Below, piece after piece: positions 981 to 59,600 of a stretch of DNA of 64,000 bases; positions within the stretch are counted from its first letter, which is position 1; every line of letters begins with the position of its first letter. A program made the translations under genes and the position numbers. The notes under the pieces are model-generated. The model saw only the letters and a list, made by a program, of their open reading frames with translations. It searched no databases and was not told the origin of the DNA. The DNA is from Vicugna vicugna. Lineage: Eukaryota. The stretch covers positions 1 through 64,000 of the forward strand of contig MU057889.1 in NCBI GenBank assembly GCA_013265495.1. Direction: 5' to 3'.

Positions 981-2189
981 ATGCTCCGGCTGCTTCTGCT
1001 GGGCATAGTCACAGTGCTCTTCATGAAGGAGGGTAAGGCTTGGGGAGGGTGGGAATAGGTGGGTGAATGGGTGGGCAGAGAATGTGGGGGGAGGAAGTGA
1101 GGGATTTCATGACCTGACTCTCGTGTCCGGAGCAGAGTGGCTCAAGGAGAATTTTCTTCTTCTCTTCACAGGAGACAGAGTCCTGACAGCAAAATGTATG
1201 GTGTAGTCCGTTGGCAGTTCTTGGATAAATAATGTCACAATGAGAGGGGCCATTTTTGAGTTCTTTGTACATGCTCTCTCTACCCTCTCTGACTCCACGC
1301 TCCTCACCCACTGTTCTAGGGTCTTCTTTCAGCCCCCAGCCTTGGGTGAGAGGGGGTCCTTGACTTGAAGGGAGTAATGACCCCGAGAGAAACTGGGAGA
1401 GGTGTCAGCATCCTTCTTGTGCATTTTGCACCACCTGAGTACAAATGCTCACAAGTGGGAGCAGATTCCTGAAGCAGAAACCCTCTCCCCTGAGCTCTGC
1501 TTTAAAGCTTTCCTCTCTTTCTTCAGATATTCGATTTTGCCATAAGTGTAATAATTTTAATGGAATGGAATGTCGCAGTCGCATGAAAAGTTGTTGGAAG
1601 TTTAACGTGATGGCAGGTAACAGGAGCTGTACCACAGACCACTTTTACTATTATGATCGCTTTCTAGGTAAGTGGGACTTAGAGAGAGACATAAAATACT
1701 ACCAGTAGTGCCCACCATCCCTGGAGTCAAGGTGTGGAGGGAGACTGGGACCAGGGGAGGGAGGAAGTGGGGTTCCCCACCCACAGGCCTGGGGTGGAGG
1801 TTTCGTGGGTGGCAAAAGTCTTTTGCCTGGTGCTGTCTAGAGACACACAGATGAGATGCAGACACAGCCTTTGGGCTCATTCCTGTGTATAGAAAACTGC
1901 GGAGGATCTGGAGAGAAGTATTGCTAGGAAGATGGTGAGGTTAATCGAGGTAATCACATTTGCTTTTCTCTTCTCTTTAGGGAAATATCTGTACCGTTAT
2001 ACAGTACTGTCTTGCAGGGCTTGTGAAGAGGGAATGCTCCAAGTATTTCATGACTTACTGAGAGAAACACATTGCTGTACTCATGAAAACAGGTGTAATG
2101 ATGGAAACAGTTTAGAAGAAAAGACAAAGATATTTGGACTAGACGGAAAAGAAAGTATATATGATACTGAGAAGATTAGCTATAAATAA
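981..2189 (+). CDS. Unnamed PATE-family secreted Ly6/uPAR three-finger protein, 141 aa; exons 981-1032, 1172-1195, 1527-1667, 1981-2189
   Basis: Signal peptide MLRLLLLGIVTVLFMKEG and all introns phase-1 GT-AG. Mature domain IRFCHKC..EC..SCW..SCTT..SCRAC..CCTHENRCN has 10 Cys. An in-frame upstream ATG exists at 969. The 24-nt micro-exon is the least certain part. Confidence 0.85.
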
Positions 2190-4769
2190 AATGATTAATA
2201 TTGAAAATGATCTCCCAGTAATTTTTGCCCTTTCCTTACCGAAAGGCAACATTATCTCCATTTTCTCAAAACCCAGAGCCTACTACTCTATTCCAGGAGA
2301 TCCACCTACGGAAGGTCTTCTTGTGATACTGCTTCCATTCACAGGAAGGTGCAAAGCCACAGGCCACAAACCCCAGCTCTGCCTTCTGCTTGGATACCCC
2401 GTCTTTGCCAGGTGACACCTCCTGGCAAAATTTACTTGCCCTTAAGTTCTGATGCTAAACCTGGCTAAATTCAGAGTTCTAAAGTTTCTGGCAAAGTATT
2501 TTACTGACAGAGTTTCTGAGAGAAGATCAGGGGAAAGCAGACTGGATACAAATTAAGGACAAGAAATCAAAGGAGATTTTTTAAGTATTCAGGAAGAGAG
2601 TAGTAGAGATATGTGGTGGGGGCCAGGAAGAGCTTGTATTAAGCAGGGGCTCGAGAAAGTCAATGTAAAATCAGAAAACACTAACTTCTGTGAGAGGAAC
2701 AGTCAGTACACAAGACATGAGTGGCTGCCAATATTTTTCAAGAACTGTACCAGCCAAGCTACTCCTGACCATGCAGCACTAGGTCACCATGTTTCTAATC
2801 TTCTTATCATATTCTCATGGCCAAAGCCAAGTACATCAGGATGGGCACTTGGCTGAGTGTTGGCCAATTACCCTGTCTCCTGGCGTGTAAGGAATCTTCT
2901 ACCGCCCAGTGCTCAAAAAAATTTAAATATTACCTTTTATTCAGTGCACTCATTGATAGACAACTGGGTGCTTCTTCATCTACTGGCACAGACTTGCAAC
3001 AGAAAATGCTAAAGAGGTAAGTTTCAGGCCTTCAAATTAGTTTTCCTCAAAAAAATAGTAAGGTGTGAAATGATGAAAATTAGTCACAAATTATTATTCA
3101 CTCGCTTTAGGTTAAAAAAAATTTAACCTAAACATATAAATGTTTCTCTATGTTAGAATCTACAGACATTATTATTATTTTATTTTTTAGCTATATATTT
3201 ATATAGACATATATTATTATTCCAGGTTTTGTAGTATTCCCTCTGATAGCCACGCTTATGATTGGTTACTAGTTTCCACCACATTTTATTTATCCAAATA
3301 GAAAAAATTTTAATATACAAAATGATTTAAAAATATTTTCATTATACGTATGCTGGATTCCCCCCAAATTGTATCATGTCAGAATGGACATTATTCTTTA
3401 ACATCTATAGAAACAGAAACATGGTAAATTCCTCCATTCGTGATTGGTTAGTTTATATGTAAAATAGAGATGCTGACAGTAGGTTCCAAATACGAAATGA
3501 GTTGTAGAGGAATTCTTGTGGCTAGTGACTACAATGGTCTAAACAACTCAAAACTAGAAACTAAGACGAAGCTTCAAATTAATGAAGAAGCACAACATGA
3601 AGAAGGTAACTGGTAGTTGGAAGAGTAGCAGATACACACTGAGTGATACAGACAGATGGAAACTGACTGCCACACATTTATAGCTAAGCTTGAAATGAAG
3701 ATTCATAAACTACTGTGGCCAAGCCTCTAGAGTTTCATCATATCTAGACTGGCCCTCTAGGTCCGGTCCTCCCGAGCCTGCCCTTTATGTTTCCTGTCTT
3801 GGATTTCCATTCGGTTCTGACTCCCATATTGCTCCATGTTACAATACCCTGTCACCCTCTAATTTTCCTGGTCCAACTGACGTGCAGTTCCATTCTTTAC
3901 ATTTTACAGAACAAGCAAACAAAAAGCAAGTGGAAGCAGAGGGAACAATGAGGGAGGCCAGATCCTAAGCAAGTACACTAGTTTGGATTCAGGTCCAGAA
4001 TTCTCTTCCAGGCCAAAGACCCCTTGGTTGGTGGTGGACCTAAGCTGGCAAAATTGATCAAAGAAGACAAATCAATTGTACAGTACTTTAAATCTGGAGG
4101 GTTAGAAGTATTTGGAAAAACAGAGTTCTTTTGTACCAATGTGTGTAAAATCATAGCTTTCCAACAGAAATGTGTTTATTATTGAAAAGTTGTCAGAAAA
4201 TCACATCTCAAAACACTTGTTTGCGAACTTTATACAAGTAGTGATTGTATTGGAATCCAGGAACCTGGCTTTACAACTTCAGCAGGTTCTGTCTAGAGAC
4301 AGTATACGATCTGGGGCTTCTTCTTTGACCTCACGTTTTAATGGACTGGGCTCTAACACAACTACTGAATGTTTCAAAATGTGCCCTGTGAGTATTCAAC
4401 ATGTGTGTGTGTGGATTGCCTGATTTATGCTCATAAGGTGCTGCTCATGGTGACAAAGGAAAACTGGAAAAACAAAATTTATTTGTACTCTTTCAGTCAC
4501 ATTTATTCTACTCTAGACTCACTGGGGCAGGGAAACCTGCCCACTGGCCCACAGGCAGAGGTAACAGCCCCCAGGAAGGATGTTAAGAGCTGCAACTGGA
4601 AAGAGGCTGTGAGTCAGGAAGCTGAAGGTGTTTGCTGTGGGGTTCTTGGGTTGATTTTAGAGCTTTGCTTAGAACTACCTGGGTAGCACCATGGTCTTTC
4701 AGTTGGGAGCTGGAGGGAACAGGATAGTTAATGAACCTTCACAAATTTACTCATATAAAAGGTAGACCA

Positions 4770-25059: not shown

Positions 25060-25725
25060 GAAAGTTGGACAGCCACATGTAAATCAATGAAGTTAGAACA
25101 CTCCCTCACACCATACACAAAAATAAACTCAAAATGACTTAAAGACTTAAACATAAGACAAGACACTATAAACCTAGAAGAAAACATAGGCAAAACATTC
25201 TCTGACATAAATCTTAGCAATGTTTTCCTAGGGCTGTCTACCTAGGCAATATATATAAAAGCAAAAATAAATAAGTGGGACCCAAGTAAACTTAAAAGCT
25301 TTTGCACAGCAAAGGAAACTGTAAACAAAACAAAAAGACAACCTTCAGAATGGGAGAAAAGATTTGCAAATGATGAGACCAAGGGCTTTATTTCCATAAT
25401 ATACAAACAGCTTATGCAACTTAATAACAAAAAACCAAACAACCTAATCCAAAAATGGGCAGAAGACCTAAAACAATTCTTCAGTGAAGACATACAAATG
25501 GTCAATAGTCACGTTGCTCAATATCGCTGATTATCGGAGAAATGAAATCAAAATTACAATGATATTTGATATCTTGTAGTAGCTTACAGTGAAAAAGAAT
25601 ATGAGAATGAATATATGCATATTCACGTATGACTGAAGCACTGTGCTGTACACCAGAAATTGACCCAACACTATAAACTCATCCTACTTCAATTAAAAAA
25701 ATAATAAAATAAAATAAAAAATAAA
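25060..25725 (+). mobile_element. Young L1 3' fragment with an internal deletion near 25560 and an A-rich tail
   Basis: Close to the L1 at 6405-6900, then jumps directly to the terminal 3'UTR and an aataaaataaa tail. Confidence 0.8.
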
Positions 25726-47875: not shown

Positions 47876-48099
47876 ATGCTAAACCTGCTGAATTGCATAC
47901 ATTAAATTTGAGAATGATTTAATGAAAATAGTTAGAAAAAAATGTAAAGTGCTTAAAACAGTCCCTGACATAACTCTCAAAAAATGTAAGCTAAGAGTTT
48001 TATCACCTCATTGTTTTTAATTTCATTTTATTCTAGGCATTAAAAGGTGGGTCACCTGTTTCCTCCCTTACACTTCATCTTTCAGTCATATATGTTTTT

Positions 48100-50100
48100 A
48101 TCAAGTGCTTTTTCTGCATCTATTGAGATGATCATGTGATTTTTGTCTTTCCTTTTATTGGTATGGTGTATCACATTGATTTCTGTATATTGAACCGTCC
48201 TTCTGACCCTGGAATGAACCCAACTTGTATAATCCTTTTTATGTATTGTTGGATTCAATTTGCTAATATTTTGTTGACGGTTTCTGCATCTATATTCATC
48301 AAAGATTGGCCTGTAATTTTCTTTCTTCCTTTCTTCCTTCCTTTCCTTTCCTTCTTCCTTTCATTCCTTCTTTCTTTTTGTATTGTCTTTATCTGGTTTT
48401 AGTATCAGGGTAATGGTGGCTTCATAAAATGACTTTGGCAGTATTCTCTTCTCTTCAATCTTTTGGAAGAATATGAGAAGAATCAGTATGAGCTCTTCTC
48501 TGTATGTTTAGTTGAACTCCCCAGTGAAGTCATCTGGTCCTGGACTTTTGTTTGCAGCAAGTTTTTTTTTTATTATTATTACTCTATTTCACTTCTAGTG
48601 ATCAGTCTGTTCAAATTATCTGTTTCTTATTGAATCAGTTTTAGCAGGCTGTATGTATCTAGAAACTTGTTCATTTCTTCTAGGTTGTCCATTTTGTTGG
48701 CATCTAACTGTTAATAGTGTTTTCTTAAGTGACTTTTAAAAATTTTTTCTGGTATCATTTGTTATTTAACCTCTTTTATTTCTCATTTTGTTTATTTAGG
48801 TCCTCTCTCCTTTTTTCTTGGTGAGCCTGGCAAGAGGTTTTTCAACTTTATCCTTTCAAAAAACCAGCTCTTGGTTTTATTGATTTTTTTCTATTATTTT
48901 TTCTCAACTTCATTTATTTCCTCTCTGATCTTTCATATTTCCATCCTTCTACTGAATTTAGGTTTGTCCTTTTTCTAATTCTTTTAGGTGGTAGGTTACA
49001 TTCTGTATTTGGGTTGTTTTTGTTGTTGTTTTTTGAGGAATACCTATATCACTACAAACTTCTCTCTTAGAACTGCTTTTGCTGCATCCCATAGATTTTG
49101 TATGGTTGTGTTTTCACTGTCATTTATATCAAGTTATTTTTTGATTTTTCTCTTTGATTTCAAGTTGGCCTATTTTTTTTTTAGTACCATGTTGTTTAGT
49201 ATTCATGGAATCTTTTTTTCTTTCATTTCTTTCTCTGGTTGATTTATAGTTTAATGCCACTGCAGTTAGAGAAGACACTTGAAATAATTCCTATCCTCTT
49301 AAATTTATTATAGCTTGTTTTGTGTCCTAGTATGTGGTCCATCCTAAAGAAAGTTCTACATGCACTTGAAAAGAACGTGTATTCTGGTTTTTTTGGATGT
49401 AGTGTTTTGTAGATGTCAATTACATCTAACTGCTCTATTGTGGCATTCAGGAACCCTGTTGCCTTATTATTTTTGTCTGTAAGATCTTTCTATTGATCTG
49501 TCCATTTGTCAGTAGAGTGTTAAAGTCTCCTATTATTGTATTCTCATCAATCTCTCCCTTTAAGTCTGTTAGTATTTGTTTTATGTATTTAGGTGCTCCT
49601 CTGTTGGGTGCATATATGCTACTGATTGTAATATCCTCTTCTTGTATTGATCCTCTTATCATTATATAGGGTCCTTTTTTATCTTTATGGCCTTTGTTTT
49701 AAAGTCTATTTTGTGTGATATGAGTATTGCTACCCCTACTTTCTTGTCATTTCCATTTACATGATATATCTTTTCTGCGTGTTATGAGTATTGCTATTCC
49801 CACTTTCTTGTCATTCCATTTGCATGAAACATCTTTTTCTATCCTGTCACTTTTAGTCTATGTGAATCCTTTGCCCTTGCAGTTAGAATACTGTAGGCTC
49901 CTGTTTTATTATCCAATCTGCCACTCTATGTCTTTTGATCAGAGCATTTAGTCCATTGACCTTTAAGGTAATTATTGATAGATACGTATTTATTGTCATT
50001 TTAGACCTTGTTTTCCAGTTGATTTTTTATTTCTTCTTTGTTCCTTTCTTCACTTTGTTTTTCCTTTTGTGGTTGAATGGTTTTCTTTTGTATTATGCTT
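48100..50100 (-). mobile_element. L1 ORF2 (endonuclease to RT) fragment
   Basis: MIRGSIQEEDITISSIYAPNRGAPKYIKQILTDL..IIGDFNT endonuclease motif. Confidence 0.9.
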
Positions 50101-52117
50101 GAATCTCAGGCCATTTCTTAATAACAAGGACTCATACTACCACACCCACCACCACCACTCACTCTTTCTTCCTCACCCCTTCTCACATTTCATCCACCAC
50201 ATTAACATTGATGTTTCCTGGTGTTTATTCCTCGGTGCTTTTCTCACAGAGTTCATTGGTGGGGGTGGGGGGCTCATTAACTCTCATAATGATAGCCATC
50301 AAATTCTCTTGGGCTACACTTAACCATCTACTATACAGGCTAATGGTCTCAAGTCTTTTACCCATGGGCTTTTTGGATCCTTAGACCTCTCTATGAACTT
50401 CCTGTTATGATGGCCAACTGGATTTTCCTCTGGCCCATCATATTCATTATGTCCAAAAGAGATCTCATCGTCCTCCCATGAAAACTGCTTTGCCCCCCTA
50501 AATTCTCAGTCTAAATACCTTCAATTACTTCTAGTCCAGAAACCTGGGAGTTTGGTCTGTGATCCCCACCCCCTCATCCAACCACAATTTTACCAGCTAA
50601 CATATTGTAAATCTGCTTCTCCTTACCATATCTACTAAAACAGTTCTAACAACTTGGCACACAAAGTACCCCAAGGCTTTGCCCCTCCTTCCTCTTTGGC
50701 CTCCTCTCCCACTTTCTTTTTTTTTTTTTTTTACTTTACTCTTTAGTAATTCTAAACAGATTGTGGCTGCCCACATACAACTTGCCTGACTCCAAGTTTT
50801 TGGTCTTAAAGTACTCTTTTCCTCAACTTTCTCTAAATAATCCTCATGTATTTTACTCAATTATCATTTCTTATAAATCTAGAACCCCTAGACCAGCTTA
50901 GATGCCCCTGATCTGTGCTCCCATAGGAACCCATGCTTACTTTCTTCCCATATATACCACATTATGATGAAATTTTTTATGTCAGACTTCCTAAATGAAG
51001 GCAAGGAATGTAACTTTTCAATATTTAACTGTGCTTTAAATTTTTTTTATTTAAAAAGTTGATTTATAATATTGTATTAGTTTTAGGTGTACATCAAAAT
51101 GATTCAGTTATATATATACAATGTATCAAGATATATTTATCTTGAGATATATATATTATACATATATTTTTAAAATTATGAATCTCAAAAATATATTGAA
51201 TATAGTTCCCTATGGTATACAGTGGCCCCTATTGTTTATCTATTCTATATATAGTAATGTATATCTGTTAATCCCATACTCCTAATTTATCCTTTCCCCT
51301 CCCCTTTCCCCTTTGGTAACCATAAATTTGTTTTCTGTCTGTTGAGTATGTTTCTGTATTATAAATAAGTTGATTGTATTTTTTTTAGATTCCCTATATG
51401 TGTTATTATGTAGTATGTCTTTCTCTGTATGACTTATCTCAGTATGATAATCTCTAAATCCATCAATATTGCTGGAAATGGCAATATTTCATTATTTTTT
51501 ATGGCTGAGTAATAGTCCATTGTGTGTGTGTGTGTGTGTGTGCATGACATCTTCTTTATCCATTCATCTGTTGATGAACACTAAGATCGCTTCCATGTCG
51601 TGGCTGTGGCAAACAGTGCTGCTGTGAGCACTGGGGTGCATGTATCTCTGCACTGGAGTATTTGTCTTTTCCAGATATATGCCCAGGAATAGGATCACTG
51701 GATCATACGGTTAAGTCTATTTTTAGTTTTTTAAGGAACCTCCATACTGTTTTTCAAGGTGGTTACACCTATTTACAGTCTCACCAACAGTATACAAGGG
51801 TTCCCTTTTCTCCATATCCTTGCCAACACTTGTTTTCTTGATGATGGCCATTCTGACAGGTGTGAGGTGATACCTCATTGCGGTTTTTGATTTCAATTTC
51901 TCAGATGATCAGTGATGTTGTGTACCTTTTCATATGCTTGTTGGCCATCTGCATTTCCTCTTTGGAAAAATGTCTATTCAGTTCTTCTGACCCTTTTCTA
52001 AATTGGGTTGTTTGTTTTTTTGGTGTTGAGTTGTATGGGCTTTTTATATACAGTGGATATTAATTCTTTATCAATCACATCATTTGCAAATATTTTTTTC
52101 CCATTCAGTATGTTGCC

Positions 52118-53596
52118 TTTTTTTTTTTTTTTAAGAACACCGTATTAACTTTATTCTAAGTCTCCATAGCTCCCCCAGGCCATCGGGCCAGTAGCAGGAA
52201 CAGGCCTCAGGCCTGTGAGGTTACAGGGTTCAACACGAAGTATTTTTCTAGCACCAAAATGCATTTCCTCCTAGTCCTGGGGCGCCGGCAAGAGCCCTGG
52301 GTGGTGGGAGCACCTCCACCCATTGAGAAGGGGGCTCGGCGCTCGGCGCCCCAGAAAGCCGCAGCTACTGGCCGAGCGCCGTGGAAGAACCCAGCCTCAC
52401 CCAAGCTCCCGGCGCGACATCGCCCTAAGGTCTGCGGGCCGCTGAGGCGGAGAAAATGGTCGCAAGGGAGGAAGGGACCGAGCGTGCGAGGGGCGTGAGG
52501 CTGCCGGCTATGCGCGTCCCCACGGGCTCGGGGAACCAGGGTCCCGGCGCCCGAGCCTCTCCCCGCGGGCCCTGGCTGGGGAGGTGACATGCCATCCCGC
52601 CCCCTCCCGCCGGCCTAGCCCGGCCACTCCCGTCGCCTGAGCCTCGTGCCCACCCGCCCACCAGGCCCGGCTCTCACCGTCCTCAGGTTCACACAGCCCA
52701 AGGGGCGGCGGGCGATCACGTCACTGCAGACCCGGATGCAGAGGATGGCCCGGCCGGGCTGAACCTGTCGCGGAGCATCGCCTCGGTCACATCGGGGTGA
52801 GGCCACGGGGACGCTGGGGTTCACCCTGCCTCAGGCCGCGACCTTTCTGTGAGGAGAAAAGCGGGTGCAGGGCCGGGGGCGGAGCAGGAGCCGGAGGGCG
52901 GGGAACGAGGGCAAGCGCCGAGGGCCAAAAGTCACCCGGACTCGAAAACTACGCCGCCGCCGTAGGACGGGGTCGATGGGCTGCAGGCCGGGCCGCCAGG
53001 GCGGCGGTGTCGGGGCCGCGCAGCCAGGAGGCCTCGGCCGCCTGGTTCCCTCGGGGAGCTGCTGAGGCGCTGCGGGCCGGCGGGTGGGTCGGTCTTGGCT
53101 GCTTCACCGGGTTATTTCATAAAAGAGGAAGAAATACTTCTCCAGCCAGGAAGACGCGGATTTCTTGTAAAAATTTTTGAGGGATTTTAAAAGATTGTTA
53201 TTTAGAGTTTTTTTTAAATAATAAATGTGTGACTGATGAGGGATGTTGAGGGTAGGGGAATATATATATGTGTGGGTGGGGAGGGCTTTGTGGGAACTCT
53301 GTATTTTCTGCTCAATTCTGTTGTGAACCTGAAACTACTCTAAAAGAATAAAGTCTATTAAAAATAATAATAGAAGGATATTTTAATTATAAAGTTCTAA
53401 ATGGGCATTTTAAATCGTGGTGTTTACCCATTTGAACTCCTCGAGGCAGCAGTGCCTAAAGACATTAACTGTGGGATTTTTCAGATATATATGCCAATAA
53501 ATTCCTTTTCCTTAAAAAAAAAATGATAATAAATGTGTGATCGGAGCCAGGAGCACACACTCGGTCCACACTCAGCACTAACTGCTGGGGGAAGGG
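52118..53596 (-). pseudogene. PABPC1: PABPC1-derived retrocopy: 5'TOP, 5'UTR, degenerate exon 1, retained intron-like sequence, AATAAA and poly(A)
   Basis: Minus strand starts CCCTTCCCCCAGCAGTTAGTGCTGAG and contains an A-rich tract and TGAAATAACCCGGTGAAGCAGCC..GAAAGGTCGCGGCCTG, all matching the PABPC1 5'UTR as recalled. The CDS remnant reads (V)NPS..HPDVTEAML..FSPAG..ILCIRVCSDVIARRPLG..VN. GACG|GTGAG at 52678/52677, AATAAA 52155-52150, A15 52132-52118. Confidence 0.85.
53233..53525 (+). mobile_element. Nested retroposed fragment (L1MC-like 3' end, MLT-like poly(A) region, A10) with a 15-bp TSD
   Basis: ATAATAAATGTGTGA at both 53218-53232 and 53526-53540; AATAAA 53496-53501; A-run 53514-53523. 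Confidence 0.8.
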
Positions 53597-54727
53597 ATTT
53601 TGTTGGTGGTTTTCTCTGCTACGCAAAAGCTTTTAAGTTTGATTAGGTCCCGTTTGTTTATTTTTGCTTTTATTTCCTTTACTTTAGGAGACGGATCCAA
53701 AAAAATACTGCTGCGATTTATGTGAAAGTGTGTTCTGCCTATGTTTTCCTCTGGGAGTTTTATAGTATCCGGTCTTACGTTTAGGTCTTTAATCCATTTT
53801 GAGTTTATTTTTGCATAGGATGTAAGAGAATGTTTAATTTTGTTCTGTTACATGTAGCTGTTCAGTTTTTCCAGCCATGCTTATTAAAGACACTGTCTTT
53901 TCTCCAGTGTATATTATTGCTTCTTTTGTCATAGCTTAATTGACCGTAAGTTCATGGATTTATTTCTGGGCTCTCTATCCTCTTCCATTTATCTGCGTGT
54001 CTGTTTTTGTCATTAATCTATGTGCCAGTACCATACTGTTTTGATGCTGGCCTCATAGAATGAATTCAGAAGTGTTCCTTCCTCTGCAATTTCTTGGAGT
54101 ATTTTCAAAAGAATATGTGTTAATTCTTCTCTAAATGTTTGGTAGAATTCACCTATGAAGTCATCTGGTTCTGGACTTTTGTTTGTTGTGAGTTTTAAAA
54201 GTACTAATTCAGCTTAAAGTACTGGTAATTTGTATGTTCATATTTTCTATTTCTTCCTTGTTCAGTTTTGGGAGCTTGCTTAGATGTGATACTGGAGAAG
54301 GGCTCCCAGAAGAGCGCTGGAGACCATGCCACCCGCTTCAATTCCCACAGACTTCCCACTGAGGCCATCGAAGCTTTCTTGGGTTTTCCCTAAACTCCCG
54401 GAACACACACAAACAACACGGTGAGGATCACAGCTGTATTATCTGTGTTCTGCTTTGCTGTTAATTTTCAAAACAAACAAACAAAAATAATATAATGTGT
54501 GGTAGTGAAAAAAGCTTTATCTAGAAAAACCTCAGACTCTCTGTATAAGCCTGGATATTTACATCTGTAAGCCTCAGTTTCCTGATCAGTAAAGAGAGCA
54601 GAGTTCACTAGATGTAAGGCAGCTTGCCCCTCCAGTCATCTAAGGAGCTGGCACAGAGCTGAGCCCTTTGAGGTGCTGGACTTGGCACATCTCTGTGCTC
54701 CCATATGAGCCCAAGAGCTCTCCAGAC

Positions 54728-55063
54728 GGGGATCATCACCTGTGACCTATGGGCCAAATCCAGCCCACCGCCTGCTCCTGGATGGTGCATGCACTAAGGA
54801 TGGTTTTCACATTTTTTAAACGTTGGAAAAATTCAAGAGAAGAATAGTATTTTATAATATGTGAAAACTATATGAAGTTCAAATTTGAGGATCCATGAAT
54901 AAAGTTTTGTTAGAACACAGTCATATTCATTCATTTACATATTTTCTGTGGCTGATTTTGAGCTACACATGGCAGAGTTGAATAGTTATAATGGAGACCA
55001 TACGGCTCTCAAAGCCTAAAATATTTACTCTCTGGTCCTTTAAAGAAAAGCTTGCCTATCCTC
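54728..55063. mobile_element. hAT-Charlie MITE (MER58B-like)
   Basis: gggccaaatccagcccaccgcctg..aaagcctaaaatatttactctctggtcctttaaagaaaag. Confidence 0.75.
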
Positions 55064-56690
55064 GCTCCAATAAATAACTTGTAGATTGTGGAGAGAAGTA
55101 TTGTGAACTTTGGAGACAGGTTGGGTGGAAATCTGCTTCCGTAGTTTTGGGAAACTATCACACCTCTCTAGGCTTTCGGTCCCTCATCTACAACATGGGA
55201 ACAGTAATAGTACATCCCCACCAAAATTTTCTGCAGACACCTCCCAAATGAACTATCACATTAGAATTCTTGTCTCAGGCTCTGCTTCAGGTGAACTCAA
55301 ACCATGACCGTGGGAAGGACGAGAAAAGCCTCGAGTGTGCAGAATCCATTCTTCTGTGAAAAGTGGGGTTCCCGGTCAGGTTTTGAGAGGCTGCCTCCCC
55401 CAGAGCTCTACTCCAGTTCACATCATCCACCGCCTGAGCCTAGGACTCATCTCCCAAAATACTGAGCAAGGCAGCTGTGCACAACAGGCTGAATTTTCTC
55501 ACTGAGCAAATGCTGGAAAGGCCCTGGGTCCAGAGAAGACCTGCGCATCAGGGAGATGGGGAGGCTGGAGCAGGACCTGGTTACCCCCCGGGCTTGGGGG
55601 GGGTGGGTCCTCGGTGGCTATAGTGCTGTGAGGGCAGTCAGTAGAAAAGCAAACTGACCTTCCTGGACTCCAGGTGAACCTTGCCCCTTCCCCTCCCGGA
55701 TGTATGTGGGGGATGACTCCCTCCCGTCTGCAGCACTGCTGAGGGCACCTGGCCAACGGACACCTCCCCCACTGGATTTATAGCCTGGACTCATTGCAAA
55801 TGTGAAGGGGACGCGGTGGGGTGCATTGTACTTACGAAGCCCCTCCTGACGCCTCTCATTTATCGTCTTCAGGAATCCGTCCATCTGTTAGTTCCCTCTG
55901 AAAACTTCTAAGGTCCCAATTTTCCAGTAGAAATTCTGAACAATCCAGTGACTCCCCTTTGCAGACAGTTGCTAACATCTCTGCTGCTCCAGAAGATAGA
56001 CTTTGCTGCCCCTTAATCTCCTTCCTCCTCCTCTTCCTCCTTTCTTCCCCTTCCTAGGCAGCCTTGTCTGTGGCCTACCTCAGACCACAGATCTCTCTTT
56101 TTCGGTGGCCATAATGCTCACAAGCCCTTCCTAGGTCCAAAGTCTATGCTGCATTTGGAGGTGGACAGGTGTAAGTTCCACTTCTGTGTTAGATCGCTTT
56201 ATCATAAGTGCCTCCATTTTTTACTGATTTAAGCCACCAATAACTTCAGAGATTTGTGTCACAACACCTAGCTCACTCAACTAACATATCATTTGTGGAC
56301 CTCCTCACACTCCCACCATTTTCAGCTTTTGAAGACTCTCCCTTCTCCTTCAGCTCCTTCTTCCGGAACACAAACAATCACAATTTCATAGTCTTCCCCA
56401 GACACTGCCTTTTTAAGCAGCAATCAATGCGACTGAAGATTAGAGCCAGAAAAAGTACCCTTGGACCTCACTATGCCCGCCACTTTTTCACTCCAGTTTG
56501 GTTTTAAAGACCATCCTGAGGGCATTTCACAATGAAGGGAAGGACATGGAGCCTGAAAACAAAATGAGACTGAGGCTGCTTCTCACAGGGGACCTGTATT
56601 CAGATCACAGAGTCTCAGAGACTGTGGTAGCAGAAAGAGATGCTCAGTTAGCTTTAACCACCAGATCAGGGCAAAAGCTGGGCGCTGTCT

Positions 56691-59600
56691 TTAGAATTTG
56701 TTGCAGAGAGGTGAGTCATGGCAGCATTTAAACTCCACAGTAGTGATGCGATTAAAGAGCTTCATGGGAATACATAGGCTGCTACAACCCTGGTATCCAT
56801 AGGAAACGGTGTCACCTGGAGAGAGGCAGAGAAGAGGGCAAGTGAGGACCCAGAACCCAGGTTGCAGGCCTGTGGGTGTGGGGTCCAGCATGTCCTGGTG
56901 TGCAGCTCAGTAAATATTCCAGAATAAATCCGAGGACCAGTGCATCAACAAACTAATCAAGGAATGAGGGGAAAACAGCACTTTCCATGAAGAACTCATA
57001 CTCTTGGTAAATATCTGCCTCCTGGGATTGAGATGCTGGAGGTGGGGCCCCCTAGTGGAATCTCCTAGGATAGCTCTGCAAACTTCGCTCAATCAGCTCC
57101 CCTCAAAAAACACACACAAGAGAGGATGAACAAACACTGCCCTCCTCCCTCCTCTCCCCCAACCTCTGTCCCTAGTTCCCCAAACCCCATCACAGTCAGG
57201 TCCCACTCTGGGGAATTTCAGCACCCCAATTCTAGTCACCCTCAGGAGCTAAACAAAAGACCCCTACTTCAGTTACAGGTCACCATCCCAGTTAAGGGCC
57301 ACTGGGAGCCCAGTACCAGAATGAGATGATACTGCTTCATCTGTTCAGGTTAAAAGAAGAAAACTACCCCCTTTCTATGCTGCTCCTACTCCCAGGGCTC
57401 CTGAGGGGCCACCTCCCTGAGTCCTACAGCCACCCCACCTTGTCCTTGGGGCCCAAGCTCTCATGGAGTCCCACGTGGAGAGGTTCATTCTACCCCCATC
57501 ACCACCACCCCAACACCCACTGCCAGCCTCTAACCTCAGGCAAAGGTCACCCAGGAGACCTCAGGCCCCACCTACCTTCGTAGACCTTCTTCAGGAAGCA
57601 CTCCTCGCTGCCTTGAGTCTGGCAGAAGCTTTCTCCAGTCTCACAGACCCCGCTGGCATTGAATCGTTCACACTGGAAACACTGTAAAGCTGGAAAGTCA
57701 AACCAGCATAGTGAGGCTCTTCCAGCCCAACCTCCCCGCTGGTCAGAAGACAGCGCGCACCTCTGAGCCAGGTGCGGCCTGGGCGCGGACCGGTTCCCAC
57801 CACCTGAAGCATGTGCTTGGTGTGTGCGTCACTAGGCACAGGGTCTGCACCTGAGCACGGACGGCTCTTCCTGTCCCCCCAGGAATGGGCTGTGCTGCTA
57901 GAGGAAGGTCAGGCCCTTCACTGCAGCCCTGCTGCCCCCACTTGCCAGCTGGCTACCACACCCAGCCCAGGAGACACCACTGAAAACATGCTCCACGTGA
58001 ATGGCACCTGCAGAGGCAGAACAGGTGGCTGCTGGAGTTGTGTGAGGAGTCGGCGCTGCCCAGCCCTGCTCTTTCCTTGCTGCAGCTTCATGAGGCCCCC
58101 CTCCCCCGTCCTCCATCACACTGAGCTGGCTCGCTCCCTCCACTCTCCCCTTTCATCTGAGGAGTAGGGCTCGGAGGAGGACCCCAGGACTCAGCCTATA
58201 AGGAGAGCTGAAGGAGGCAGGGAGGGGAGAGAGAGGGGTGGGAGGAAGCAGGATGGGAAGTAAAAGAGAAGATGGGATGAGAGTGAGGTGAGCTAGGGGG
58301 AGACTGAGGGGAGAAGGAAGGGCGGGAGGAGCTGCAGCTCCTGACTCCTCCTTGGGATAAGCACCCAGCAGCCCCTGCGCTGTTCAACAGTGAGCACCTG
58401 ACGTGTGCAAGGCACTATTCCAGGTGTTGGGCTGGGAACAGAGCGCTGAAGGGAGCCGTGAAACATCCATTCCACTTAATTAAACACTAAACAAATAAAT
58501 GGGGGAAATGACTGACAATGAAGAAATAAGAAAGGTTATTTCAGGTCCTGGTGACTTGTGAAGATGATGAGGCTGAGGAAACGCTGCAGAGAGGGTGTGG
58601 TGAGGCAAAAACATTTTCCGAGGGGTTATGTAAGCTCAAATCGGAGTAATTTTTTAAAAAGTTGACTACTTGACTGGGAGAAGTTGGGAAACTGGTTACA
58701 GGACAAGTGCAAAGAAAGGTTCTGAGGTGGAATTAGCTTGGCCAGTTTGAGAAACAAAAAGAAGAGCACAGGTAAAGTGGAAAAGAGTGAGAACATGATA
58801 ACTTGGGAGTGAAGAGGCCAGCAGGGACCAGACCGTAAGGATGGATCTTCTTACACCTGCATTGTCCAACACGGTAGCCACAGGCCACAGGTGGCTATCA
58901 AGCCTGTGAAATGCAAGCAGTCCAAAGACATAGGCTCTAAGTGAGTTTCAAACACTTAGCACAAAAAATAAAAATTTTAAATTGTTCATCAGTAACTTCG
59001 ATGTTGATTACATGCTGAAATGATAATATTTTAGATATATTGGGTTAAAGTCTACTATTAAAATTGATTTTACACATTCCTTATTTTTTAAAATATGCCT
59101 ACCAGAAAATTTAAAATTACATGTGTAGGTTGGTTTATTTCTTATTTGTACAACACAGGTTAAGCCACCATAAGAATTGGGATTTTATTCAAACTTGGAG
59201 GAGGCCACTAGAGGTTTTTAAATAGGGAGTGACATTAACTGGTTTCTGTTTTGCAAGTACACTCTGGCAGATGTGCAGACAGTAGATTTTAAAGAAGGAG
59301 AGAGTAACAGAAGCCCGGGAAAGAGGTAGCAGAAAGAGGAAGTTGAGAATAAAGCCACCAGTCAACTGAGTCAATGTAAGACACGAGAAATTAAAGGTCA
59401 AGTATGGACCTAATTAAACTTATAAGCTTTTGTATAGCAAAGGAAACCATAAGCAAAACAAAATGACAACCTACAGAATGCGAGAAAGTATTTGCATATG
59501 ATGCGACTGACAAAGGCTTAATCTCCAGAATATATAAACAGCTCATACAACTTAATAACAAACACCAAACAACCCAATCCGAAAACAGGCAGAAGACCTA

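What the first reader, a model, noticed from the sequence alone, without database searches (positions are those of the whole stretch)
52118..53596. Retrocopy of an unspliced, intronically polyadenylated PABPC1 transcript
Seen: the insert begins at a pyrimidine 5'TOP-like start and runs through the PABPC1 5'UTR and exon 1. At the position where exon 1 ends (..GACG|GTGAG, 52678) it does not continue into exon 2. Instead about 520 nt of GC-rich intron-like DNA follow, then AATAAA, 17 nt and A15. It splits an L1 and has no clear TSD. Established: ordinary PABPC1 processed pseudogenes are spliced, PABPC1 autoregulates through its A-rich 5'UTR and associates with L1 RNPs, and premature cleavage in first introns is normally suppressed by U1 snRNP. 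Inference: a fossil of a short germline PABPC1 isoform ending in intron 1, possibly an unrecognised regulatory or decoy RNA carrying the TOP and A-rich elements, that L1 mobilised.
Basis: partly seen in the sequence, partly recalled or inferred. Interest (0 to 1): 0.85.

Follow-up and report, generated by a model that had tools for sequence, protein, structure and literature searches.

The report
Retrocopy of intron-terminated PABPC1 transcript
This is a dead, L1-inserted DNA copy of a short PABPC1 RNA that was never spliced and was cut and polyadenylated inside intron 1, so it is a tidy molecular fossil of premature RNA termination but not a new kind of element.

Summary
On the minus strand, 53596 to 52118, lies a copy of the PABPC1 5'UTR and exon 1, running unspliced into 545 nt of intron 1. 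It ends with AATAAA, 17 nt and A15.

The parental PABPC1 gene is in the same assembly (G000:C6043, locus L002). Homology starts at the TATA-predicted transcription start. It stops 16-17 nt after an intronic AATAAA that lies 561 nt into the 3006-nt intron 1. At that point the parent has a GU/U-rich stretch and no A-run. This rules out DNA duplication and internal priming.

The copy splits a minus-sense L1 ORF2 at a TTTTT/A site without a target-site duplication. It is dead: ATG is now GTG, with 29- and 16-nt coding deletions and 16.8% divergence.

It is the only one of 8 non-parental PABPC1-like places in the genome that enters intron 1; three are spliced.

Present-day use of the site could not be shown, and a regulatory or decoy role has no support. 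Verdict: real and well explained, a new member of a known kind, of modest interest.

The parts
52118..52132 (-). Poly(A) tail of the retrocopy (A15). Up to 5 of these T's on the + strand may belong to the L1 target.
   Evidence: T run 52118-52132, 15 nt. The parent has no A-run at the matching place. Other L1 copies have TTTTT at this point.
52150..52155 (-). AATAAA poly(A) signal inherited from PABPC1 intron 1. 17 nt (52149-52133) separate it from the tail.
   Evidence: The same hexamer lies at L002 2039-2044 in the parent.
52133..52677 (-). Copy of the first 561 nt of PABPC1 intron 1 (545 nt here), starting with the intact 5' splice site GTGAGA.
   Evidence: 83% identity, E 1.1e-159; the only other match in the 2.03-Gb assembly is the parent. 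(77 mismatches in 543 aligned columns).
52678..52824 (-). Exon 1 coding part, now dead. The former ATG is GTG (52824-52822). There are 29-nt and 16-nt deletions and a 1-nt deletion.
   Evidence: Parental exon 1 translates to 64 aa that match PDB 1cvj poly(A)-binding protein 1 residues 1-64, E 2e-45.
52825..53232 (-). 3' part of the 5'UTR copy: the GC-rich part and the degraded A-rich tracts. It has an 18-nt deletion just before the start codon. 53218-53232 is one copy of the 15-bp duplication made by the nested insertion.
53233..53525 (+). Later nested insertion. About 130-148 nt match the 3' end of a young high-copy L1. About 150 nt of other DNA follow, with their own AATAAA and A10. The insertion is flanked by the 15-bp duplication ATAATAAATGTGTGA (53218-53232 and 53526-53540).
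   Evidence: duplication. (1944 candidates, 40 scored, 87-95% identity over query 1 to about 130-166). (the extra part has a single relative, on C11445, with no L1 upstream).
53526..53596 (-). 5' end of the retrocopy, starting in the pyrimidine tract at the parental transcription start. 53526-53540 is the second copy of the nested insertion's duplication.
   Evidence: query 1-70, 86%, E 1.4e-12. (homology stops at L002 805/806, about 30 nt after TATAAG at L002 775-780).
51434..52117 (-). Host L1, the part downstream of the insertion in L1 sense (ORF2 C-terminal region).
   Evidence: minus-strand frames. (51726-51908 matches human LINE-1 ORF2p residues 1103-1126, E 6e-05). (other copies in the window).
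53597..53847 (-). Host L1, the part upstream of the insertion in L1 sense.
   Evidence: matches human LINE-1 ORF2p residues 949-1026, E 1.8e-19. (other copies run uninterrupted across the insertion point).

Best explanation
A PABPC1 pre-mRNA started at the normal transcription start. It failed to splice at the exon 1 donor site. It was then cleaved and polyadenylated 16-17 nt after an AATAAA that lies 561 nt into intron 1, at the downstream edge of the promoter CpG island.

In a germline cell the L1 machinery used this roughly 1.26-kb polyadenylated RNA as a template. It nicked a TTTTT/A site inside an older L1 ORF2, primed on the poly(A), and copied the RNA to its cap. No target-site duplication was made.

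The copy has no promoter of its own and has since decayed: the start codon is lost, the reading frame is broken by deletions, and a younger L1-derived piece has inserted into its A-rich UTR. It is a pseudogene fossil without a demonstrated function.

Shown: the anatomy, the parent, the exact ends, the absence of a templated A-run, the L1 host and the target site.

Inferred: that cleavage and polyadenylation made the 3' end, that L1 did the copying, and that the RNA was a sporadic by-product of a very highly expressed gene rather than a maintained isoform.
For: (1): 52133-52677 matches only itself and G000:C6043:9457115-9457674 (83%, E 1.1e-159).

(2): that locus is the multi-exon PABPC1 gene. 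It has a TATAAG, a pyrimidine-tract start and an A-rich 5'UTR. Its exon 1 matches PDB PABP1 residues 1-64 at E 2e-45. Exon 2 lies at L002 coordinate 4506, so intron 1 is 3006 nt.

(3): homology runs from L002 805/806 to 2060 and stops on both sides. Upstream promoter DNA and downstream intron DNA are not copied.

(4): the parent has AATAAA at 2039-2044, then 16 nt, then GGTGGTGGCTATCAGGTTTTATGATTT. That is a GU/U-rich downstream element with no A-run. The copy has A15 there instead.

(5): the 940 nt of intron beyond the site occur once in the genome.

(6): other L1 copies read ...GTTGTC TTTTT GTTTTG... across the point where this one is split. The flanks here are GTTGCC+T15 and ATTTTG. The nick site therefore fits the L1 endonuclease preference, and nothing is duplicated.

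(7): three other PABPC1 copies in the genome (C3345, C2471, C11790) join exon 1 to exon 2 as ordinary spliced retrocopies. Retrocopying of this gene is therefore recurrent here.
Against: No direct evidence shows that the intronic site is used today. In one search no reads or contigs with loose A-ends were seen. The one run that covers the whole stretch (X1) has contigs on both sides of the site, with mean word depth 82 upstream and 56 downstream.

The held supplementary text of one human intronic-polyadenylation atlas (4 files) does not list PABPC1.

The usual target-site duplication of L1-mediated insertion is absent.

The base between the last matching nucleotide and the A-run (a T at 52133 against G in the parent) leaves the cleavage point uncertain by 1 nt.

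Only one such copy exists, so the abundance of the template RNA cannot be judged.
Confidence: 0.9

Rival explanations
1. The template was not a sporadic by-product. It was a regular, evolutionarily maintained short PABPC1 isoform ending in intron 1. It would carry the TOP start and the A-rich autoregulatory tracts and act as a regulator or decoy.
For: The parental site has the full architecture of a strong poly(A) site: AATAAA, a UGUA about 70 nt upstream, and GU/U-rich DNA downstream (by inspection). It still has this after the time it took the copy to diverge by 14-17%. A related organism's contig (X1) shows no change in the hexamer. Five RNA-labelled runs from 2 studies hold 0.65 of the sampled words of the intron's first 561 nt.
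Against: Only 1 retrocopy of this form exists, against 3 spliced ones. Intron RNA is also present beyond the site. No poly(A) ends were seen. PABPC1 is absent from the held supplement text of one human atlas. No paper was found that describes such an isoform (listings only, two passages read). The predicted product is 64 aa of half an RRM plus 12 intron-coded residues, which has no obvious use.
Confidence: 0.1
2. L1 reverse transcriptase primed internally on, or switched template to, an unprocessed nascent PABPC1 pre-mRNA. No genuine cleavage and polyadenylation took place at this site.
For: Internal priming on this gene's RNA may occur. Two paralogous loci (C5574, C11569) hold a 92-nt copy of the 5'UTR that ends in its A-rich tract and has a duplication-like flank.
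Against: The parent has no A-rich stretch at or after L002 2061 to prime on. The end falls at the canonical distance after an AATAAA. An A15 tail is present.
Confidence: 0.04
3. A DNA-level (segmental) duplication of the PABPC1 5' region was later trimmed by deletions, and the A-run arose by chance.
For: The CpG-island character is well kept (GC 0.68, CpG observed/expected 0.80), as it would be in a young DNA duplicate.
Against: Both ends coincide with RNA landmarks, the transcription start and the cleavage site. No promoter or further intron DNA is present. The copy sits inside an L1 at an endonuclease-type site, and it has an A15 tail.
Confidence: 0.02

Closest known systems
Ordinary processed (spliced) PABPC1 pseudogenes, e.g. 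the copies at G000:C3345 and C2471 in this genome
   Same: Same parent gene, the same full-length 5' start in the pyrimidine tract, and the same RNA-mediated origin.
   Different: Those copies join exon 1 to exon 2 and continue through later exons. This one reads through the donor site into intron 1 and ends at an intronic poly(A) site. It contains no downstream exon.
Partially processed (intron-retaining) retrocopies, such as the rat preproinsulin I gene. They are cited as 'partially processed retrogenes' in PMC5470649 (passage read). Baertsch et al. [quoted passage not shown]
   Same: The retrocopied RNA still carried intron sequence.
   Different: Those copies keep a whole intron between two exons and end at the gene's normal 3' end. 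Here the RNA ended inside the intron, so only the first 561 nt of 3006 are present.
Intronic (premature) cleavage and polyadenylation isoforms with a composite terminal exon. The process is normally held down near the 5' splice site by U1 snRNP. This is general knowledge; the review PMC7471841 was seen only as one passage.
   Same: An unspliced first donor site, a canonical hexamer and a downstream GU/U-rich element in the first intron.
   Different: What is seen here is a DNA fossil of such an RNA, not the RNA itself. Current use of the site is unproven.
The use of retrocopies as fossils of past transcript variants (Shemesh et al. 2006, seen only as an entry in a reference list; the paper itself is not held)
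   Same: The same logic: a retrocopy records a transcript form that was present in the germline.
   Different: I could not read that paper, so I cannot say whether intron-terminated forms or PABPC1 were among its cases.

Membership tests
L1-mediated retrocopy (retropseudogene) | Homology to the parent confined to transcribed sequence, beginning at or after the transcription start | tested here: met
   homology begins at L002 805/806, about 30 nt after TATAAG. The promoter is not copied.
L1-mediated retrocopy (retropseudogene) | Untemplated poly(A) tail at a cleavage site downstream of a poly(A) signal | tested here: met
   A15 lies 17 nt after AATAAA. The parent has GGTGGTGG... there.
L1-mediated retrocopy (retropseudogene) | Introns removed | tested here: not met
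   the copy reads through the exon 1 donor into 545 nt of intron 1. No exon-exon junction is present.
L1-mediated retrocopy (retropseudogene) | Flanking target-site duplication | tested here: not met
   compared with uninterrupted L1 copies in the window, the flanks abut without a duplication. At most 5 T's are hidden in the T15.
L1-mediated retrocopy (retropseudogene) | Insertion at a T-rich/A endonuclease-type site | tested here: met
   other copies read TTTTT followed by G/A at the split point. The preference for TTTT/A is recalled knowledge.
Intronic polyadenylation isoform of the parent gene | Canonical hexamer 10-30 nt before the end, plus a U/GU-rich element downstream in the gene | tested here: met
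   AATAAA at L002 2039-2044, the end at 2060/2061, then GGTGGTGGCTATCAGGTTTTATGATTT.
Intronic polyadenylation isoform of the parent gene | RNA 3' ends with untemplated A's observed at the site | tested here: inconclusive
   4 runs laid. There were no loose ends. The raw-read run X23 laid 0 reads. In X7 and X8, contigs over the upstream part were absent from the lay, although says these runs hold it (a filter drops human-like records). X1 covers both sides.
Intronic polyadenylation isoform of the parent gene | Conservation of the signal in other mammals | not testable with these tools
   No other mammalian genome is held. Pattern scans of metagenome and prokaryote collections gave 0 or chance hits.
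Segmental (DNA) duplication | Copy extends beyond transcript landmarks and lacks a poly(A) tail | tested here: not met
CpG island (sequence criteria, recalled: length over 200-500 bp, GC over 0.5-0.55, observed/expected over 0.6) | Composition | tested here: met
   for 52133-53130, GC 0.684, 93 CpG, observed/expected 0.797. The window as a whole has 0.246. Methylation state is not testable here.

The most novel reading that the evidence does not exclude
The AATAAA at the edge of the PABPC1 promoter CpG island may be a maintained, regulated early-termination site. Its roughly 1.26-kb product would carry the TOP start and the A-rich PABP-binding tracts but almost no coding capacity. It could be a real germline RNA that takes part in PABPC1 autoregulation, as a termination switch or a decoy for the protein. 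On this reading, the retrocopy shows the RNA has been made for tens of millions of years.
Probability: 0.08. Interest if true: 0.6.

Novelty: new member of a known kind. Interest (0 to 1): 0.3.

Why it matters
The copy is a clean, fully traceable case of a retrocopy that records premature cleavage and polyadenylation in a first intron, which U1 snRNP is thought to suppress. It shows that such an RNA from PABPC1 was stable enough, and present in the germline, to be copied by L1.

It gives an exact coordinate (G000:C6043:9457674/5) at which to look for a short PABPC1 RNA.

It also points to a blind spot. Retrocopy pipelines score removed introns as their strongest signal and align mRNAs only (methods passage of PMC2584115). 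They will therefore miss single-exon-plus-intron copies like this one. A search of this text library for 'retrocopies' together with 'intronic polyadenylation' found 0 papers.

Beyond that it is an ordinary dead pseudogene.

Tried and rejected
(1) RNA evidence. I laid 4 of the 24 listed runs on L002:1500-3500, which is intron only.
- X8 gave 1 contig piece (3158-3500).
- X7 gave 3 pieces (2728-2878, 2851-3284, 3383-3500).
- X23 (raw reads) gave 0 reads.
- X1 gave 2 pieces (1500-2122 at depth 82.1, and 2094-3500 at depth 56.2).
- No joints, no loose ends and no pile of ends were seen.

The tool warns that human-like records are dropped and that contig depth is flat, so this neither shows nor excludes use of the site.

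(2) Cross-species conservation. A 21-nt intron pattern found 0 metagenome contigs. A 23-nt exon 1 pattern found 3 metagenome loci, which match only the 23-26 nt themselves (chance), and 0 prokaryote-genome contigs.

(3) Protein search with the 76-aa read-through product (1460 hits at E <= 1e-5 among 1506 candidates; 18 of the 120 listed were read). Many vertebrate contigs encode exon 1 read into intron 1. These ORFs end long before the poly(A) site and say nothing about it.

(4) RNA fold around the site: z-score -0.57, so there is no structure worth noting.

(5) Pfam on L1 pieces. There was nothing for the flanks, and RVT_1 was found only weakly for a different L1 at 48082-48360. L1 identity was instead shown against solved ORF2p structures.

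(6) An attempt to get a full-length young L1 yielded a truncated copy only.

(7) Rfam on 48000-58000 gave 0 matches.

(8) Earlier-findings look-ups gave nothing.

(9) Literature.
- The search for PABPC1 with 'intronic polyadenylation' listed 15 of 30 papers. I read one passage in each of two of them, and both were irrelevant.
- The search for PABPC1 with 'premature cleavage and polyadenylation' listed 12 of 13 papers. I saw listings only.
- The search for 'processed pseudogene' with 'intronic polyadenylation' listed 9 of 10 papers. None is about retrocopies, judging by title.
- The supplements of PMC5928244 hold no PABPC1 in the 4 held files.
- The supplements of PMC10227441 could not be read and might list the site.

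Full report
**What is there.** Read on the minus strand, the stretch 53596 to 52118 has the following parts.
- It begins in a pyrimidine tract.
- It continues through a sequence like the PABPC1 5'UTR, with A-rich tracts and then a GC-rich part.
- It passes a former start codon, now GTG at 52824-52822, and an exon-1-like coding part that ends ...GACG at 52678.
- It then continues without a break into GTGAGAGCC... for 545 nt (52677-52133).
- AATAAA sits at 52155-52150. 17 nt follow, and then A15 (52132-52118).

**The parent.** The assembly that holds the window is available (2.03 Gb, 12405 contigs; the window is C1017:1-64000). The 545-nt stretch matches only itself and one other place, C6043:9457115-9457674, at 83% identity over 1-544 of 545, E 1.1e-159.

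That place (locus L002) is the 5' end of a multi-exon gene with these features:
- TATAAG at L002 775-780.
- A pyrimidine tract at 802-816.
- A-rich tracts at about 870-935.
- ATG at 1308.
- Exon 1 ending at 1499, followed by GTGAGAGCC.

Its exon 1 gives 64 residues that match human poly(A)-binding protein 1 (PDB 1cvj, residues 1-64) at E 2e-45. Spliced copies elsewhere in the genome place exon 2 at L002 coordinate 4506, so intron 1 is 3006 nt.

**The two ends.** A global alignment of the copy against L002 780-2100 was made with the nested insertion removed. Homology runs from L002 805/806 to 2060 and stops abruptly on both sides.

Upstream, the promoter is replaced by L1 sequence.

Downstream, the parent reads AATAAA (2039-2044), then GTTAATATGGTGTTCT, then GGTGGTGGCTATCAGGTTTTATGATTT. 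The copy reads AATAAA, then GTTAATACGGTGTTCT, then T and A15. So the parental intron has the signal, a GU/U-rich stretch where a downstream element should be, and no A-run.

The 940 nt of intron beyond the site occur only once in the genome.

It excludes internal priming on a genomic A-tract and makes a DNA-level duplication untenable. The 3' end lies 561 nt into the intron and about 1255 nt from the transcription start, where the GC-rich promoter island ends.

**Insertion site.** Both flanks belong to one minus-sense L1.
- The right flank (53600-53847, minus frame) matches human LINE-1 ORF2p residues 949-1026 (E 1.8e-19).
- The left flank (51726-51908) matches residues 1103-1126 (E 6e-05).

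Four other copies of this L1 region in the window align to one or both flanks. Where they cross the split point, for example at 25290-25385, they read ...GGTTGTC TTTTT GTTTTGTT.... Here the left flank ends GTTGCC and is followed by T15. The right flank begins ATTTTGTTGG.

Nothing is duplicated. At most five T's of the T15 are target DNA. A nick after TTTTT and before A/G fits the known preference of the L1 endonuclease (recalled knowledge). The lack of a duplication is unusual but known for L1 insertions.

**State of the copy.** Against the parent there are 192 mismatches in 1143 aligned columns (16.8%) and 125 gap columns. By segment:
- 5'UTR: 91 of 454 mismatches.
- Coding part: 24 of 146.
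- Intron part: 77 of 543.
- Outside CpG columns: 112 of 876 overall, and 41 of 420 for the intron part.

The larger gaps include 18 nt just before the start codon, and 29 nt and 16 nt in the coding part. The copy cannot encode a protein.

With a neutral rate recalled from the literature (about 2e-9 per site per year), this divergence suggests an age of some tens of millions of years. This is a rough inference.

One difference can be polarised. At L002 2052 the parent has T, while both the copy and a related organism's contig (X1) have C. So the parent changed there.

**A later event inside it.** The A-rich UTR is interrupted by 293 bp on the + strand (53233-53525), flanked by the 15-bp duplication ATAATAAATGTGTGA (53218-53232 and 53526-53540).
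- The first 130-148 nt are the 3' end of a young high-copy L1 (1944 candidates, 40 scored, 87-95% identity).
- The remaining roughly 150 nt end in their own AATAAA and A10.
- This remaining part has a single relative in the genome, on C11445. That relative is about 90% identical apart from a 26-nt gap and has no L1 upstream.

This looks like a 5'-truncated L1 with a 3' transduction, or a chimeric copy. The source was not found.

**Other PABPC1-like places.** The parental 5'UTR plus exon 1 finds 9 places (11 matching pieces). Classified against 33 kb of the parental gene, the places other than the parent itself are:
- C3345 (92% in exon 1, 95-99% in later exons; ORF stops after 371 aa), C2471 and C11790 join exon 1 to exon 2, so they are spliced retrocopies.
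- C9999 and C12154 match the coding part of exon 1 only, and are probably intron-bearing paralogues (not followed up).
- C5574 and C11569 are two copies of one locus that holds a 92-nt piece of the 5'UTR ending in its A-rich tract.
- The window copy is the only one that continues into intron 1.

Copies below roughly 70% identity could have been missed.

**Is the site used today?** This could not be settled. 19 of the 24 listed runs hold half or more of the sampled words of the intron's first 561 nt. Five of these are on record as RNA, from 2 studies, with a share of 0.65.

I laid 4 runs on L002:1500-3500, and none showed loose A-ends, joints or a pile of ends.
- The two RNA-labelled runs showed only low-depth contigs far downstream: from 2728 in X7 and from 3158 in X8.
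- They showed none over the part they are said to hold. The tool warns that human-like records are dropped, so this hole proves nothing.
- X1 (kind guessed) has one contig over 1500-2122 (depth 82.1) and another over 2094-3500 (depth 56.2). RNA or DNA from beyond the site is therefore also present.
- The raw-read run laid no reads.

**Reading.** The simplest account, which I hold at about 0.9, is an L1-mediated retrocopy of an unspliced PABPC1 RNA that was prematurely cleaved and polyadenylated in intron 1.

Such an RNA would encode 64 residues of RRM1 plus 12 intron-coded residues before a stop.

PABPC1 is among the most highly expressed genes (general knowledge), so a rare by-product is enough to explain one retrocopy against three spliced ones. 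The idea that this is a maintained regulatory or decoy RNA is not excluded, but it has no support here (about 0.1).

**Comparison with what is known.**
- Retrocopies that keep intron sequence because of incomplete processing are recognised (PMC2584115, methods passage; PMC5470649, 'partially processed retrogenes').
- Intronic polyadenylation is widespread (titles and abstracts).
- Retrocopies have been proposed as fossils of transcript variants (Shemesh et al. 2006, seen only in a reference list; the paper is not held).
- I found no paper in the library that links retrocopies with intronic polyadenylation (0 papers), and none that describes a PABPC1 intron 1 site (listings and two passages only).

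The object is therefore a new member of a known kind. It is a well-documented example, not a new mechanism.

**A side observation.** The copy still looks like a CpG island: GC 0.684, 93 CpG and observed/expected 0.797 over 52133-53130, against 0.246 for the window.
- 56 of the 109 parental CpGs are shared.
- 39 CpGs are present in the copy but not in the parent.
- The older spliced copy on C2471 also keeps 0.70 in its exon 1 part.

This would fit a retrocopied island that stayed unmethylated in the germline, but no methylation or expression data could be examined.

Noticed in passing
window 53233-53525 (+), duplications at 53218-53232 and 53526-53540: A young 5'-truncated L1 3' end, plus about 150 nt of non-L1 DNA with its own AATAAA and A10, inserted into the A-rich UTR of the retrocopy with a 15-bp duplication. 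The extra part has one relative in the genome (C11445, locus L031 about 1495-1624) with no L1 beside it. It is probably a 3' transduction or a chimeric copy. The source was not found.
   Followed up: partly
L011 about 1500-1600 (minus) and L012 about 1500-1600 (plus), i.e. G000:C5574 and C11569: Two paralogous loci each hold a 92-nt copy of the PABPC1 5'UTR (L002 824-915). It ends in the A-rich tract and is flanked by a repeated TTAAAAAG.AACTTTAA-like string. This suggests a mini-retrocopy primed on the internal A-rich tract that was later duplicated with its surroundings.
   Followed up: partly
window 52133-53130: The retrocopy keeps CpG-island composition (GC 0.68, observed/expected 0.80) despite about 17% divergence and an L1 neighbourhood at 0.1-0.3. 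It may have stayed unmethylated in the germline as an orphan island.
   Followed up: partly
L004 2015-3130 (G000:C3345): A full-length-start, spliced PABPC1 retrocopy. It is 95-99% identical in exons 2-8 but 92% in exon 1/UTR, with an open frame of 371 aa before a stop and a jump from exon 8 to the last exon. It is probably a younger pseudogene. Function was not assessed.
   Followed up: partly
L008 and L009 (G000:C9999, C12154): Two places match only the coding part of PABPC1 exon 1 (81-83%), and homology ends a few bases past the donor site. They are probably intron-bearing paralogues of the PABPC family.
   Followed up: no
window 48082-48360 and 49244-49698 (minus frames): A separate minus-sense L1 with frames that look like reverse transcriptase (RVT_1, weak, E 9.4e-4) and endonuclease. 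It is not the element that hosts the retrocopy.
   Followed up: no
proteins P0004, P0006, P0007, P0009: Read-through ORFs from other organisms' contigs share a ...HFLL(C/R)DHFL..SQTLG string. It corresponds to L002 about 1715-1766, so that part of intron 1 is conserved between species.
   Followed up: no
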